A DNA stretch of 64,000 nucleotides from the NCBI RefSeq assembly GCF_003018255.1, contig NZ_CP027440.1; one strand, 5' to 3'. This DNA is from Escherichia coli. GTDB taxonomy: Bacteria > Pseudomonadota > Gammaproteobacteria > Enterobacterales > Enterobacteriaceae. Position numbers and translations under genes: made by a program. Each line of letters starts with the position of its first letter. The first letter of the stretch is position 1. The notes beneath the pieces are model-generated. The model was not told where the DNA came from and searched no databases. It was given only the letters and a program-made list of their open reading frames with translations. This document shows, one piece after another, positions 61,861-64,000 of the stretch.

Positions 61861-62103
61861 ATAGAGCGAGGACGCTAACAGGAACAATGACTCAGGATGA
61901 GGGTCAGGAGCGCCAGGAGGCGAAGACAGAGGATTGTCAGGAAGATAAACGTCCGGAGACGTAATTAAACGGAAATGGAATCAACACGGATTGTTCCGGC
62001 TAATGGAAAAACAGGGTGTGTTGGCGGCCTGCAAGGATTGTAAGACCCGTTAAGGGTTATGAGTCAGGAAAAAAGGCGACAGAGTAATCTGTCGCCTTTT
62101 TTC
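61861..62103 (+). ncRNA. csrC: CsrC small RNA (CsrA-sequestering)
   Basis: About 240 nt non-coding stretch between yihA and yihI with many GGA-containing motifs (aggacg, caggaa, aggatga, caggag, aggagg, aggatt, caggaa...) and terminal hairpin aggcgacagagtaatctgtcgcc followed by ttttttc; ends approximate. Confidence 0.8.
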
Positions 62104-62171
62104 TTTGCTTGCTTTCTGTTAGATTCCGCCGCAAATCTATACTGAATAAAACGGCTAAAAGACGAACCATT

Positions 62172-62681
62172 ATGAAACCATCATCTTCAAACTCACGCAG
62201 CAAAGGTCATGCAAAAGCGCGTCGAAAAACACGCGAGGAGCTGGATCAGGAAGCTCGTGACCGTAAGCGTCAGAAAAAACGTCGTGGTCATGCGCCGGGC
62301 AGCCGCGCAGCGGGCGGTAACACCACGTCAGGCAGCAAAGGCCAGAACGCACCGAAAGATCCACGTATTGGCAGTAAAACCCCTATTCCATTGGGCGTGA
62401 CTGAAAAAGTCACCAAACAGCACAAACCGAAGAGTGAGAAACCTATGCTTTCACCGCAGGCGGAGTTGGAGTTACTGGAAACGGATGAGCGTCTGGATGC
62501 GCTGCTGGAACGTCTGGAAGCAGGCGAAACCCTGAGCGCCGAAGAGCAATCCTGGGTGGATGCCAAACTGGATCGTATTGATGAGTTGATGCAGAAACTC
62601 GGCCTCTCTTATGACGATGACGAAGAAGAGGAAGAAGACGAGAAGCAAGAAGACATGATGCGTCTGCTGCGGGGCAACTAA
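62172..62681 (+). CDS. yihI: Der GTPase-activating protein YihI
   Basis: Start chosen at [19 protein letters not shown] (169 aa); basic N-terminus, acidic C-terminus; ORF track start at 62109 is an upstream extension. Confidence 0.88.
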
Positions 62682-62869
62682 CGGATTGCCGCCGTGGGCC
62701 TTCCCGTTCTGCTGATAACCCTTCCGGTTATATGTTATCTGGTGTGGTTATTCGTTAAACTACAGCGGTTGTCGCGGCGACAAAAGTGGCTGCGCAACCG
62801 GCTGATGACTCGAAACGGGCATCCGCCGGTACGCCGTAGCCGCCAGAGACGCCATCGGAAGGAGTGAGC

Positions 62870-64000
62870 ATGTCTGTACAGCAAATCGACTGGGATCTGG
62901 CCCTGATCCAGAAATATAACTATTCCGGGCCACGATACACCTCGTACCCGACCGCGCTGGAGTTTTCAGAAGACTTCGGCGAACAGGCGTTTTTACAAGC
63001 CGTGGCGCGCTATCCTGAGCGTCCATTATCTCTCTACGTACATATTCCGTTCTGCCATAAGCTTTGTTACTTCTGCGGTTGCAATAAGATAGTTACTCGC
63101 CAGCAGCACAAGGCCGATCAGTATCTGGACGCGCTGGAGCAAGAAATCGTCCATCGTGCACCGCTGTTCGCCGGGCGTCACGTCAGCCAATTGCACTGGG
63201 GCGGCGGAACGCCGACGTATCTGAATAAAGCGCAAATCAGCCGTCTGATGAAGCTGCTGCGCGAAAACTTCCAGTTCAATGCCGATGCGGAGATCTCGAT
63301 CGAAGTCGATCCGCGGGAAATCGAACTGGATGTACTCGATCATTTACGCGCCGAAGGCTTTAATCGCCTGAGCATGGGCGTGCAGGACTTCAACAAAGAA
63401 GTGCAACGTCTGGTTAACCGCGAGCAGGATGAAGAGTTCATCTTTGCACTGCTTAACCATGCGCGTGAGATTGGCTTTACCTCCACCAACATCGACCTGA
63501 TTTACGGCCTGCCGAAACAGACGCCGGAGAGTTTCGCCTTTACCCTGAAACGTGTGGCGGAGCTGAACCCCGATCGTCTGAGTGTCTTTAACTACGCGCA
63601 TCTGCCGACCATTTTTGCTGCTCAGCGCAAAATCAAAGATGCTGACCTGCCGAGTCCGCAGCAAAAACTCGATATCCTGCAGGAAACCATCGCCTTCCTG
63701 ACACAATCGGGCTATCAGTTTATCGGTATGGATCACTTTGCCCGTCCGGATGACGAGCTGGCGGTGGCCCAGCGTGAAGGCGTGCTGCATCGTAACTTCC
63801 AGGGCTACACCACTCAGGGCGATACCGATCTGCTGGGGATGGGCGTTTCCGCCATCAGCATGATTGGCGACTGCTACGCGCAGAACCAGAAAGAGTTGAA
63901 GCAGTACTATCAGCAAGTGGATGAACAAGGCAATGCGCTGTGGCGTGGTATTGCGCTAACGCGTGATGACTGTATTCGCCGCGATGTGATTAAGTCGCTC
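62870..64000 (+). CDS. hemN: Oxygen-independent coproporphyrinogen III oxidase HemN, 3' end truncated by window end
   Basis: ATG at 62870 with ggaaggag RBS; MSVQQIDWDLALIQKYNYSGPRYTSYPTA N-terminus; radical SAM CxxxCxxC motif (HIPFCHKLCYFCGCN); open to window end so absent from the ORF track. Confidence 0.92.
   Translation, partial: MSVQQIDWDLALIQKYNYSGPRYTSYPTALEFSEDFGEQAFLQAVARYPERPLSLYVHIPFCHKLCYFCGCNKIVTRQQHKADQYLDALEQEIVHRAPLFAGRHVSQLHWGGGTPTYLNKAQISRLMKLLRENFQFNADAEISIEVDPREIELDVLDHLRAEGFNRLSMGVQDFNKEVQRLVNREQDEEFIFALLNHAREIGFTSTNIDLIYGLPKQTPESFAFTLKRVAELNPDRLSVFNYAHLPTIFAAQRKIKDADLPSPQQKLDILQETIAFLTQSGYQFIGMDHFARPDDELAVAQREGVLHRNFQGYTTQGDTDLLGMGVSAISMIGDCYAQNQKELKQYYQQVDEQGNALWRGIALTRDDCIRRDVIKSL

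What the first reader, a model, noticed from the sequence alone, without database searches (positions are those of the whole stretch)
62694..62867. Unannotated small ORF between yihI and hemN overlapping the hemN ribosome-binding site
Immediately after the yihI stop, one frame is open for 57 codons (possible GTG start at 62694, stop TGA at 62865-62867). It would encode a hydrophobic N-terminal segment (LPVLLITLPVICYLVWLF) followed by a very basic tail (RRSRQRRHRKE), which resembles a small membrane protein. It falls below the 60-aa cutoff of the ORF track and ends inside the hemN Shine-Dalgarno region. I recall a small protein gene (yshB) annotated somewhere near hemN in K-12 but cannot confirm that it is this ORF.
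Basis: partly seen in the sequence, partly recalled or inferred. Interest (0 to 1): 0.3.

Follow-up and report, generated by a model that had tools for sequence, protein, structure and literature searches.

The report
Unannotated small membrane-protein gene before hemN
The 57-codon frame filling the yihI–hemN gap is a real, conserved gene for a tiny, very basic membrane-anchored protein; the E. coli K-12 reference lacks it, two ribosome-profiling surveys already list it (as "X067"), its function is unknown, and it is not yshB.

Summary
Its last two sense codons, AAG GAG, are the hemN Shine-Dalgarno, and hemN starts 2 nt after the stop.

- **Chance:** alone the ORF is unremarkable; 24% of shuffled spacers keep a stop-free forward frame.
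- **Conservation:** in 80 loci anchored on HemN, the frame is intact in about 72, across roughly 30 genera. Length changes are whole codons. pN/pS is 0.45 against 0.88 and 1.44 in the other forward frames. Variation is highest at codon position 3.
- **Range:** relatives occupy the same yihI–ORF–hemN slot in Pectobacteriaceae, Yersiniaceae, Hafniaceae and Morganellaceae.
- **Product:** one N-terminal transmembrane helix plus a tail of net charge +14.
- **Not yshB:** yshB lies beyond hemN on the other strand and shows no similarity.
- **Already reported:** it is gene X067 in EHEC (Neuhaus 2016, ribosome footprints) and Entero67K cluster 1920 in K-12 (Fesenko 2024). Other genera mislabel it "high mobility group protein Z".
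- **Likely mechanism (inferred):** co-transcription with yihI and translational coupling to yihI upstream and hemN downstream.
- **Unexplained:** a 45-nt core is invariant at all codon positions.

The parts
62694..62867 (+). Small ORF (57 codons plus TGA; GTG start). Identical to X067 of Neuhaus 2016, NC_000913.3_ORF.50430 / cluster 1920 of Fesenko 2024, and E. coli hypothetical protein EFJ75131.1.
62697..62756 (+). Codons for residues 2-21 (GLPVLLITLPVICYLVWLFV), the predicted transmembrane helix.
   Evidence: Kyte-Doolittle 19-residue mean is 2.2. AlphaFold2 predicts a helix over residues 3-40 with pLDDT 81-89 in the first 20 residues. Codon position 2 (T) is conserved: entropy by position is 0.71/0.30/1.09.
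62757..62864 (+). Codons for the basic tail (residues 22-57; 15 K+R, 1 E). The sequence varies between genera but the tail is always basic.
   Evidence: Arg codons CGN vary at position 3.
62733..62777 (+). A 45-nt core that is nearly invariant at all three codon positions within Enterobacteriaceae (TGTTATCTGGTGTGGTTATTCGTTAAACTACAGCGGTTGTCG). It implies a nucleotide-level constraint on top of the coding constraint.
   Evidence: position-3 entropy is 0.26 here against 1.09-1.14 in the flanking parts and 1.20 in the yihI 3' end.
62756..62761 (+). TAAACT, a -10-like hexamer inside the core, invariant in all distant relatives examined. It is a candidate internal hemN promoter element and is unverified.
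   Evidence: The promoter scan did not call it.
62679..62696 (+). The yihI stop to ORF start junction: TAA CGG ATT GCC GCC GTG. There are 12 nt between the stop and the GTG, the two are in the same phase, and there is no AGGAGG-like Shine-Dalgarno.
62859..62872 (+). The ORF end to hemN start junction: AAG GAG TGA GC ATG. The last two sense codons are the hemN Shine-Dalgarno, and the stop lies 2 nt before the hemN ATG.
   Evidence: The 2-nt spacing occurs in 71 of 81 loci.
62172..62681 (+). yihI (Der GTPase-activating protein), the upstream gene and probable co-transcription partner.
   Evidence: Neuhaus 2016 assigns the promoter of X067 to yihI.
62870..64000 (+). hemN (oxygen-independent coproporphyrinogen III dehydrogenase). 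The 5' part runs off the end of the window.

Best explanation
The ORF is a genuine protein-coding gene for a 7.1-kDa, pI-12 microprotein. The protein has one N-terminal transmembrane helix and a 36-residue polybasic tail.

Shown here:
- The reading frame, the hydrophobic helix and the basic composition are conserved under purifying selection across the order Enterobacterales.
- The ORF always sits in the slot yihI - ORF - hemN.
- Published data show ribosome footprints covering 84-88% of it in EHEC and K-12.

Inferred:
- By the positive-inside rule the helix inserts in the inner membrane with the N-terminus out and the tail in the cytoplasm.
- The gene is transcribed with yihI. It is translated mainly by ribosomes that have just terminated at the yihI stop. 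The start codon lies 3-15 nt downstream in the great majority of loci, is often GTG or TTG, and has no Shine-Dalgarno.
- Its own termination, on top of the hemN Shine-Dalgarno and 2 nt before the hemN AUG, passes ribosomes on to hemN or modulates their access. This would link hemN translation on the long transcript to yihI and ORF translation.

The molecular function of the protein is unknown. My best guess is a membrane tether or modulator for a neighbour-encoded partner (HemN or YihI/Der) acting through its basic tail. This is the weakest step.
For: Frame conservation:
- In 80 loci anchored on HemN, and therefore unbiased with respect to the ORF, the frame ending at the SD-overlapping stop is open for 60-69 codons in about 72 loci from roughly 30 genera.
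- No other frame on either strand is consistently open.
- The distance from the Lys22 codon to the stop is a multiple of 3 in 79 of 80 loci, across five length classes.

Selection:
- pN/pS is 0.45 in this frame against 0.88 and 1.44 in the other forward frames, and it is lowest in every sub-block.
- Position-3 variability exceeds positions 1 and 2 (Wilcoxon p = 7e-5 and 1.5e-4).
- At greater distance the residues Y15, L16, L19, K22, L23, L26 and S27 are kept through synonymous codon changes.

Distribution:
- A profile search found 27 relatives of 50-72 aa with the same architecture.
- They occur in Dickeya, Brenneria, Serratia, Rahnella, Rouxiella, Edwardsiella and Photorhabdus.
- All four contexts examined show yihI - ORF - hemN.
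- Three of the four Pectobacterium/Brenneria loci keep the ORF intact even where inserted repeats separate it from hemN.

Protein features:
- The N-terminal 19-residue hydropathy mean is 2.2 and the tail net charge is +14. AlphaFold2 predicts a single helix over residues 3-40.

Translation and expression:
- EHEC X067 has translatome RPKM 162, coverage 0.84 and ribosomal coverage value 0.64, with its promoter assigned to yihI (PMC4765031).
- In K-12 the Onc112 initiation-site count is 8, with 116 footprint reads covering 88% of the ORF (PMC11188072).

Junctions and population:
- The spacer is present in 5425 of 5426 complete E. coli genomes, with no indel in 60 sampled records.
Against: - No protein has been detected: Neuhaus 2016 found no MS peptides, and no tagging study was found.
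- The initiation-site signal in K-12 is very weak (8 reads, Onc112 only). Stringer 2021's supplement does not list the ORF.
- The start codon is not conserved at one position. It is ATG in 30 loci and GTG in 20. In 27 loci there is no start codon at that position, and 25 of those have only a TTG three codons upstream.
- A pN/pS of about 0.45-0.54 indicates only moderate constraint.
- Part of the amino-acid conservation coincides with a 45-nt core invariant at all codon positions, so a nucleotide-level element contributes to it.
- The terminal R-K-E residues are explained by the hemN Shine-Dalgarno.
- The ORF is disrupted in Pseudocitrobacter and lost in one uncultured lineage.
- Coupling to yihI and hemN rests on geometry alone. 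If the main hemN promoter lies inside the ORF, coupling would apply only to read-through transcripts.
- Nothing tested here points to a specific molecular function.
Confidence: 0.72

Rival explanations
1. The ORF is translated but the peptide has no function of its own. It acts in cis as a translated bridge that carries ribosomes from yihI to hemN, or opens the hemN RBS. Its sequence conservation comes from DNA or RNA signals embedded in it, such as an internal hemN promoter or an anti-SD segment.
For: - The start and stop are tightly juxtaposed with the yihI stop and the hemN SD/AUG.
- Starts are weak or non-ATG and there is no Shine-Dalgarno.
- The 45-nt core is invariant at all codon positions and contains TAAACT.
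- RNAalifold pairs the core UUAUUCGUU with the hemN SD AAGGAGUGA.
- CCTTCCG at 62720-26 is complementary to CGGAAGG at 62856-62.
Against: - A pure spacer would not keep a hydrophobic helix and a basic tail through extensive nucleotide change in Pectobacteriaceae, Yersiniaceae, Hafniaceae and Morganellaceae.
- It would not show pN/pS below 1 outside the invariant core, where the TM part is 0.51 and the tail 0.42-0.50.
- In Pectobacterium and Brenneria loci L079-L081 the ORF is intact although it no longer abuts hemN.
- The predicted core-SD helix has no covariation, and the E. coli minimum-energy fold does not use it.
Confidence: 0.14
2. The region is not a gene. It is the hemN 5' regulatory region (promoter and leader), and one frame happens to be open.
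For: - 24% of shuffled spacers keep a stop-free forward frame.
- The curated K-12 record and PGAP annotate nothing here.
- There is a nucleotide-invariant core.
- The region folds better than shuffles, with z = -2.98.
Against: - Frame integrity holds across about 72 of 80 loci with in-phase indels.
- Substitutions show codon periodicity and frame-specific pN/pS.
- The protein-level architecture is retained at order level.
- Ribosome footprints cover 84-88% of the ORF in two strains.
Confidence: 0.05
3. The ORF is a regulatory leader peptide of the SecM/MifM/VemP type. Its N-terminal membrane segment and C-terminal tail would modulate ribosome pausing at the end of the ORF, which sits on the hemN SD, and so set hemN translation.
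For: The layout resembles monitoring substrates: an N-terminal hydrophobic segment, a C-terminal Arg-rich stretch, and a stop on the downstream gene's SD. Structure is possible around the SD.
Against: - The C-terminal region varies in sequence and length (44-71 aa) and has no conserved arrest motif apart from the SD-imposed RKE.
- Some Pectobacteriaceae ORFs end far from hemN.
- HemN is not a membrane-insertion factor, so the feedback logic is missing.
- No covariation supports an SD-sequestering helix.
Confidence: 0.05
4. The ORF is a C-terminal extension of YihI made by read-through of the yihI stop codon, or the remnant of a longer ancestral YihI.
For: The ORF is in phase with the yihI TAA in E. 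coli and in 53 of 80 loci. One metagenomic record carries a YihI-ORF fusion, P0022.
Against: - 27 of 80 loci are out of phase with yihI, and nearly all of these have their own ATG.
- Distant relatives start with ATG 3-7 nt after the yihI stop.
- The yihI stop is usually TAA.
- The in-phase loci are phylogenetically clustered in the 188-nt spacer class.
Confidence: 0.02
5. The ORF is yshB.
Against: - yshB (b4686) is at K-12 4053647-4053757 on the minus strand, between hemN and glnG.
- BLASTP gives no alignment at E <= 100.
- There is no hit to Pfam PF28018 YshB, which marks a separate gene beyond hemN in locus L086.
Confidence: 0

Closest known systems
X067 of E. coli O157:H7 EDL933 (Neuhaus et al. 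2016, BMC Genomics 17:133, PMC4765031) and NC_000913.3_ORF.50430 / Entero67K cluster 1920 (Fesenko et al. 2024, PMC11188072)
   Same: They are the same ORF. The nucleotide and protein sequences, the GTG start and the 174-nt length are identical. The K-12 coordinates 4051868-4052039 correspond to window 62694-62864. Both papers report ribosome footprints, and Fesenko reports a coding signature and a predicted TM segment.
   Different: Neither paper names it, analyses it individually or gives a function. Neuhaus describes the 72 novel genes as restricted to Enterobacteriaceae and recently evolved. Here the family is found in five families of Enterobacterales, always between yihI and hemN.
Database entries labelled 'high mobility group protein Z' (for example Edwardsiella ictaluri C5BC82_EDWI9 and Photorhabdus WP_445495960.1)
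   Same: They are sequence relatives of this ORF with the same length, TM-plus-basic-tail architecture and yihI-ORF-hemN position.
   Different: The name is a misnomer. There is no HMG-box or any other Pfam domain. In the literature the name refers only to insect chromatin proteins. I infer that the label was transferred because of the basic tail.
YshB (b4686; Pfam PF28018)
   Same: It is a small predicted membrane protein encoded next to hemN.
   Different: It lies on the other side of hemN, on the opposite strand, is 36 aa long, and has no sequence similarity.
Small single-pass inner-membrane proteins with a basic cytoplasmic tail, such as BcsF (63 aa) and AcrZ (49 aa)
   Same: The architecture is shared: an N-terminal TM helix followed by a short cytoplasmic tail. 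These proteins are encoded next to, and often act on, a larger partner. BcsF recruits BcsE to the membrane and AcrZ binds AcrB; both statements are established knowledge that I did not test here.
   Different: There is no detectable homology (hhalign probability 1.8% against BcsF). The tail is far more basic (net +14). No partner is known.
Translationally coupled small ORFs, and leader or monitoring peptides (SecM, MifM)
   Same: The start lies within a few nucleotides of the upstream stop, the stop overlaps the downstream gene's RBS, and the N-terminal segment is hydrophobic.
   Different: There is no conserved arrest motif and no covarying SD-sequestering hairpin. The peptide itself is under purifying selection and persists where it is detached from hemN.

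Membership tests
YshB (b4686, PF28018) | Located between hemN and glnG on the strand opposite to hemN | tested here: not met
   One search places yshB at K-12 4053647-4053757 (-). This ORF maps to 4051869-4052042 (+), upstream of hemN.
YshB (b4686, PF28018) | Sequence similarity to YshB or a match to PF28018 | tested here: not met
   BLASTP gives no alignment at E <= 100. There is no Pfam hit at E <= 10.
HMG-box proteins ('high mobility group protein Z') | An HMG-box DNA-binding domain | tested here: not met
   No Pfam family matches the E. coli protein at E <= 10. The AlphaFold2 model is a single helix, not the three-helix L-shaped HMG fold.
Enterobacterial yihI-hemN small ORF family (X067 / Entero67K cluster 1920) | Sequence identity or similarity to X067 | tested here: met
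   The protein and DNA are identical in Additional files 1 and 8 of PMC4765031. Relatives are found at E = 1e-30 to 1e-4.
Enterobacterial yihI-hemN small ORF family (X067 / Entero67K cluster 1920) | Synteny: directly downstream of yihI and upstream of hemN on the same strand | tested here: met
Protein-coding gene (comparative criteria) | Reading frame kept open across species, with indels in multiples of three | tested here: met
   About 72 of 80 loci are open. The anchor distance is a multiple of 3 in 79 of 80 loci, across five length classes.
Protein-coding gene (comparative criteria) | An excess of synonymous over non-synonymous change that is specific to this frame | tested here: met
   pN/pS is 0.45 against 0.88 and 1.44. 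Fesenko reports a within-genus dN/dS of 0.54.
Protein-coding gene (comparative criteria) | A conserved start codon preceded by a ribosome-binding site | tested here: inconclusive
   The codon at the conserved position is ATG in 30 loci, GTG in 20 and a non-start codon in 27; 25 of the last group have TTG three codons upstream. E. coli has no Shine-Dalgarno upstream of the GTG.
Protein-coding gene (experimental criteria) | Ribosome occupancy of the ORF | not testable with these tools
   From the literature only. EHEC translatome RPKM is 162 with coverage 0.84. K-12 has 116 footprint reads with coverage 0.88 and an initiation-site count of 8.
Protein-coding gene (experimental criteria) | Detection of the protein by MS or epitope tag | not testable with these tools
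   Neuhaus 2016 reports no MS peptides for X067. No tagging study was found.
Small single-pass inner-membrane proteins | One hydrophobic helix long enough to span the membrane | tested here: met
   The Kyte-Doolittle 19-residue mean is 2.23 at residues 1-19. AlphaFold2 predicts a helix over residues 3-40. Both papers predict a TM segment.
Small single-pass inner-membrane proteins | Membrane localisation and topology shown experimentally | not testable with these tools
   The N-out/C-in topology is inferred from the positive-inside rule only.
Translationally coupled gene pairs | The start codon lies within a few nucleotides of the upstream stop, and the stop lies at the downstream start | tested here: met
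   The gap after the yihI stop is 3-15 nt in nearly all loci. The stop lies 2 nt before the hemN ATG in 71 of 81 loci.
Translationally coupled gene pairs | Downstream translation depends on upstream translation | not testable with these tools
   This needs reporter fusions carrying premature stops.
SecM/MifM-type regulatory arrest peptides | A conserved C-terminal arrest motif and a conserved hairpin that sequesters the downstream SD | tested here: not met
   The tail varies in sequence and length. The predicted SD pairing has no covariation.

The most novel reading that the evidence does not exclude
The ORF is a dual-purpose element conserved across Enterobacterales. It encodes a membrane-anchored polybasic microprotein with a function of its own, for example tethering or modulating HemN or the YihI/Der ribosome-assembly system at the inner membrane. 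Its translation would also physically couple synthesis of the anaerobic haem enzyme HemN to that of the ribosome-assembly regulator YihI. Its coding sequence would in addition carry an internal regulatory element, the 45-nt invariant core, acting as a hemN promoter or an anti-SD.
Probability: 0.12. Interest if true: 0.55.

Novelty: already known. Interest (0 to 1): 0.3.

Why it matters
This is a concrete gap in the best-curated bacterial genome annotation. A gene conserved across at least five families of Enterobacterales, with published ribosome footprints, is absent from NC_000913.3 and from PGAP annotation of E. coli. In other genera it carries a misleading name, "high mobility group protein Z". 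Adding it to K-12 and correcting that name is worthwhile housekeeping.

Biologically it is one more uncharacterised small inner-membrane protein. Its invariant position between a ribosome-assembly regulator (yihI) and the oxygen-independent haem enzyme (hemN), with coupling-type junctions on both sides, gives a testable hypothesis about co-regulation of the two genes. Its order-wide distribution also contradicts the earlier description of this gene class as recently evolved and family-restricted.

Tried and rejected
- **yshB identity:** rejected.
- **YihI read-through extension:** rejected as a general explanation, because 27 of 80 loci are out of phase with yihI.
- **Rfam families in the spacer:** none found; only CsrC upstream.
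- **Consensus promoter and terminator scan:** it found no sigma-70 promoter in 62000-63100 and no terminator after yihI.
- **Curated protein families:** there is no Pfam or NCBIfam match.
- **BcsF homology:** none.
- **Conserved RNA structure:** RNAalifold gives a weak consensus of -18 kcal/mol with a covariation term of -0.45. The core-to-SD helix is built entirely from invariant columns, so it is neither supported nor refuted. The E. coli minimum-energy fold does not contain it.
- **hemN transcription start:** I could not obtain it.
  - Troup 1995 is not held.
  - The supplements of SMRT-Cappable-seq, Conway 2014 and Mendoza-Vargas 2009 gave nothing for hemN.
  - A search for 'hemNp' found only hemin-uptake genes.
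- **Other ribosome-profiling papers:**
  - The Weaver 2019 and Stringer 2021 main texts do not mention the locus.
  - The Stringer supplement does not list it.
  - The Weaver supplement is not held.
- **EDL933 record NC_002655:** it is not in the collection. I established identity from the sequence printed in the paper's supplement instead.
- **Fold search:** not run, because a single helix gives meaningless matches.
- **Complex prediction with HemN or YihI:** the tools do not offer it.
Full report
**Observation.**
- yihI ends with TAA at 62679-81.
- After four codons (CGG ATT GCC GCC) a GTG at 62694 opens a 57-codon frame that ends with TGA at 62865-67.
- The last two sense codons, AAG GAG (62859-64), are the hemN Shine-Dalgarno. 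The hemN ATG is at 62870.
- The product is MGLPVLLITLPVICYLVWLFVKLQRLSRRQKWLRNRLMTRNGHPPVRRSRQRRHRKE.

The frame is in phase with the yihI stop. The window is E. coli, 100% identical to strain JNE23-011 and 99% identical to K-12. K-12 has the same ORF with one difference, ACT to ACC, which is synonymous in this frame. Window position x corresponds to NC_000913.3 position x + 3989175.

**Is it more than chance?** In a single sequence it is not. The spacer is 58.5% G+C. Among 5000 dinucleotide-preserving shuffles, 24% keep a stop-free forward frame and 5% contain a complete ORF of at least 50 codons. The case therefore rests on comparative and experimental data.

**It is not yshB.** In the curated K-12 record, yshB (b4686) is at 4053647-4053757 on the minus strand, between hemN and glnG. 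Nothing is annotated between yihI (which ends at 4051856) and hemN (which starts at 4052045). PGAP annotates only yihI and hemN over this stretch in all 90 E. coli genomes sampled across the ranking. YshB has its own Pfam family, PF28018, seen beyond hemN in locus L086. The ORF has no Pfam hit and no BLASTP alignment to YshB.

**Conservation of the frame.** I anchored on HemN, so that loci were chosen without regard to the ORF, and fetched 80 loci from one-genome-per-species contigs.
- The frame that ends at the stop next to the hemN Shine-Dalgarno is open for 60-69 codons in about 72 loci from roughly 30 genera. In Buttiauxella it is 48 codons.
- The consensus is (M/V)GLPVLLITLPVICYLVWLFVKL(Q/R)RLSRRQKWLRNRL, followed by a variable Arg-rich stretch and then HRKE.
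- No other frame on either strand is consistently open.
- The distance from the Lys22 codon to the stop is a multiple of three in 79 of 80 loci, across five length classes (69, 105, 108, 111 and 114 nt). All indels in the variable tail are therefore in phase.

**Substitution pattern.**
- Summed pairwise pN/pS is 0.45 in this frame, against 0.88 and 1.44 in the other two forward frames. This frame is the lowest of the three forward frames in each sub-block: TM part 0.51, core 0.46, tail 0.42-0.50.
- The wobble-matched antisense frame scores 0.54, as expected, but it contains stops.
- Mean column entropy at codon positions 1, 2 and 3 is 0.56, 0.53 and 0.89 (Wilcoxon p = 1.5e-4 and 7e-5). The TM part shows the pattern of hydrophobic coding, 0.71/0.30/1.09.

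**Exceptions.**
- Pseudocitrobacter (L018, L025) carries a 125-bp insertion in the TM-coding part plus an in-frame TAG. From memory the insertion looks ERIC-like.
- One uncultured lineage (L057) has lost the ORF.
- Two loci (L058, L074) keep the frame but have no canonical start.

**Wider distribution.**
- The protein search found the ORF called as a hypothetical protein of 57-60 aa in several genera.
- A profile built from 19 diverse sequences (A3) found 27 relatives among 1.84 billion representatives. All are 50-72 aa with the motif CYL(L/V)WL..KL(W/Q/R)RLS(R/K)RK..L, and many end in RKE.
- Source names place them in Dickeya and Brenneria (Pectobacteriaceae), Serratia, Rahnella and Rouxiella (Yersiniaceae), Edwardsiella (Hafniaceae) and Photorhabdus (Morganellaceae).
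- In all four contexts examined the order is engB/yihA (opposite strand), yihI, ORF, hemN.
- At this distance the core residues Y15, L16, L19, K22, L23, L26 and S27 are kept through synonymous codon changes (Leu TTA/CTG/CTC/CTT; Ser TCG/TCA). This is protein-level constraint.
- In three of the four Pectobacterium/Brenneria loci, inserted repeats separate the ORF from hemN. The ORF is still intact at 55-58 aa, has an ATG 3 nt after the yihI stop, and ends in ...RRERF. It therefore persists when detached from hemN.

**The protein.** It is 7.1 kDa with pI 12.0, 15 K+R and 1 E. The 19-residue Kyte-Doolittle mean is 2.2 for residues 1-19, and the tail (residues 22-57) has net charge +14. AlphaFold2 with the 19-sequence alignment gives one helix over residues 3-40, with pLDDT 81-89 in the first 20 residues, followed by a low-confidence tail. 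By the positive-inside rule (established knowledge) I infer N-out/C-in topology in the inner membrane. There is no Pfam or NCBIfam family and no homology to BcsF, a small protein with a similar layout.

**Prior reports.** The ORF has been published twice.
- Neuhaus et al. 2016 (PMC4765031) list it as novel gene X067 of EHEC EDL933.
  - It lies at NC_002655 4916583-4916756, is 174 bp and has a GTG start. The printed DNA and protein sequences are identical to this ORF.
  - They report transcriptome RPKM 255, translatome RPKM 162, footprint coverage 0.84 and ribosomal coverage value 0.64, with no MS peptides.
  - They place its predicted promoter 22 nt upstream of yihI, meaning it is polycistronic with yihI. 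The transcript is lower in most non-LB conditions.
- Fesenko et al. 2024 (PMC11188072) list it as NC_000913.3_ORF.50430, cluster 1920 of their conserved Entero67K set.
  - In MG1655 they report an Onc112 initiation-site count of 8 and 116 footprint reads covering 88% of the ORF. Their within-genus dN/dS is 0.54.
  - In UPEC 536 it has a predicted TM segment and log2 fold change -2.5 on oxygen deprivation.

Neither paper discusses it individually. It is not in Stringer 2021's supplement. In GenBank and RefSeq, relatives are labelled 'high mobility group protein Z'. That name occurs in the literature only for insect proteins, and no HMG box is present. I infer that the label is a propagated mis-annotation.

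**How it probably works.**

Shown:
- The ORF is a conserved coding sequence.
- It has a constant position.
- It has published footprints.

Shown by geometry only:
- The start lies 12 nt after the yihI stop in E. coli, and 3-15 nt after it in the great majority of loci.
- At the conserved position the codon is ATG in 30 loci and GTG in 20. The other 27 have no start codon there, and 25 of them have TTG three codons upstream.
- E. coli has no AGGAGG-like sequence upstream of the GTG.
- The stop lies 2 nt before the hemN ATG in 71 of 81 loci.
- No terminator-like site follows yihI.

From this I infer co-transcription with yihI, initiation mainly by ribosomes that have just terminated at the yihI stop, and termination on the hemN Shine-Dalgarno that passes ribosomes to hemN or affects their access. 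The lower transcript level on oxygen deprivation fits a yihI-type transcript rather than an anaerobically induced one, but this is weak evidence. The function of the protein itself is not indicated by anything tested here. A role as a membrane tether or modulator for HemN or YihI/Der is a guess based on neighbourhood and on how other small membrane proteins act.

**Unexplained feature.** Within Enterobacteriaceae, 62733-62777 is almost invariant at all three codon positions. Position-3 entropy is 0.26 there, against 1.09-1.14 in the flanking parts of the ORF and 1.20 in the 3' end of yihI. Inside it, TAAACT (62756-61) and the TAT codon of Y15 are invariant even in the distant relatives. I considered two explanations and could verify neither.
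- An internal hemN promoter, with TAAACT as the -10 element. The consensus scan does not call it, and I could not obtain hemN transcription start data.
- An RNA segment that pairs with the hemN Shine-Dalgarno. RNAalifold pairs UUAUUCGUU with AAGGAGUGA, but every pair is invariant, so there is no covariation. The E. coli minimum-energy fold does not use the pairing.

Because the core overlaps the most conserved residues, part of the apparent protein conservation within Enterobacteriaceae is really nucleotide conservation. The distant relatives are what show constraint at the protein level.

**Rivals.**
- A read-through extension of YihI fails because 27 of 80 loci are out of phase with yihI, and nearly all of those have their own ATG.
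- A purely non-coding leader fails on in-phase indels, codon periodicity and footprints.
- A translated but functionless bridge remains possible, at about 0.14. It does not explain why the helix and basic tail persist through extensive nucleotide turnover, or why the ORF persists when detached from hemN.
- An arrest-peptide leader is unlikely because the tail has no conserved motif.

**Verdict.** The small-membrane-protein interpretation is supported and the yshB guess is refuted. The feature is a real gene, but it is already catalogued as X067, as Entero67K cluster 1920 and as 'HMG protein Z' entries. It belongs to a well-known kind, the small single-pass membrane proteins. This analysis adds four things:
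- order-wide conservation and constant synteny;
- the coupling-type junctions on both sides;
- the embedded invariant core;
- exposure of the database misnomer.

Interest is modest.

Noticed in passing
window 62733-62777: A 45-nt stretch inside the ORF is nearly invariant at all three codon positions across about 70 Enterobacteriaceae loci. TAAACT (62756-61) and the TAT codon are invariant even in Pectobacteriaceae, Yersiniaceae and Hafniaceae. This suggests a DNA or RNA element superimposed on the coding sequence, either an internal hemN promoter or an anti-SD segment. The cause was not established.
   Followed up: partly
window 62720-62726 and 62856-62862: CCTTCCG inside the ORF is the exact complement of CGGAAGG, which covers the 5' part of the hemN Shine-Dalgarno. 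RNAalifold instead pairs 62748-56 with the SD. Neither pairing has covariation support.
   Followed up: partly
window 61861-62114: The sRNA gene CsrC lies directly upstream of yihI (Rfam RF00084, 276 bits, full length). Its terminator hairpin is at 62066-62105. K-12 annotation agrees.
   Followed up: yes
L018 and L025 (Pseudocitrobacter), about 2220-2345 in locus coordinates: A 125-bp insertion that looks like an ERIC/IRU repeat (recognised from memory, not tested) interrupts the TM-coding part of the ORF, and an in-frame TAG follows later. An ATG at the end of the insertion would restore a 47-aa ORF (MVTCITLLVICYLVWLFVKL...).
   Followed up: partly
L079, L080, L081 (Pectobacterium, Brenneria), between the small ORF and hemN: One to three copies of a repeat of about 70-80 nt are inserted downstream of the ORF. 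Each carries the hairpin AAAAACGCCGGGAGCGTTTTT. The ORF's last codons (..KRRERF*) run into the repeat. It looks like a family-specific miniature repeat element.
   Followed up: no
protein clusters of P0028, P0029, P0031: The label 'high mobility group protein Z' is still being propagated for this bacterial family, including in a recent RefSeq entry (WP_445495960.1). No HMG box is present and no bacterial literature uses the name.
   Followed up: yes
window 62679-62696 and the 80 related loci: The small ORF is in the same phase as the yihI stop in 53 of 80 loci (spacer length 188 nt in 44). This is probably phylogenetic clustering rather than selection. One metagenomic protein (P0022, 139 aa) is a YihI C-terminus fused to the ORF.
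   Followed up: partly
P0018 (Salmonella enterica subsp. enterica record): This record shows the ORF frameshifted after ...KLQR, with the end of yihI also shifted. S. enterica subsp. diarizonae and subsp. arizonae (L027, L043) have it intact. This may be assembly error. The status in common serovars was not checked.
   Followed up: no
E. coli genome search: One of 5426 complete E. coli genomes has no match to the yihI-hemN spacer, and two matches lie on records typed as plasmids. One strain (H30/H88, the Z1323CEC series) has yihI annotated only as 'GTPase-activating protein', with a split match.
   Followed up: no
PMC4765031 Additional file 8, entry X067: The original EDL933 sequence (NC_002655) has an ambiguous base (aaaMta) at the Leu23 codon, inside the TAAACT motif. 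This gives an X in the published X067 protein.
   Followed up: no
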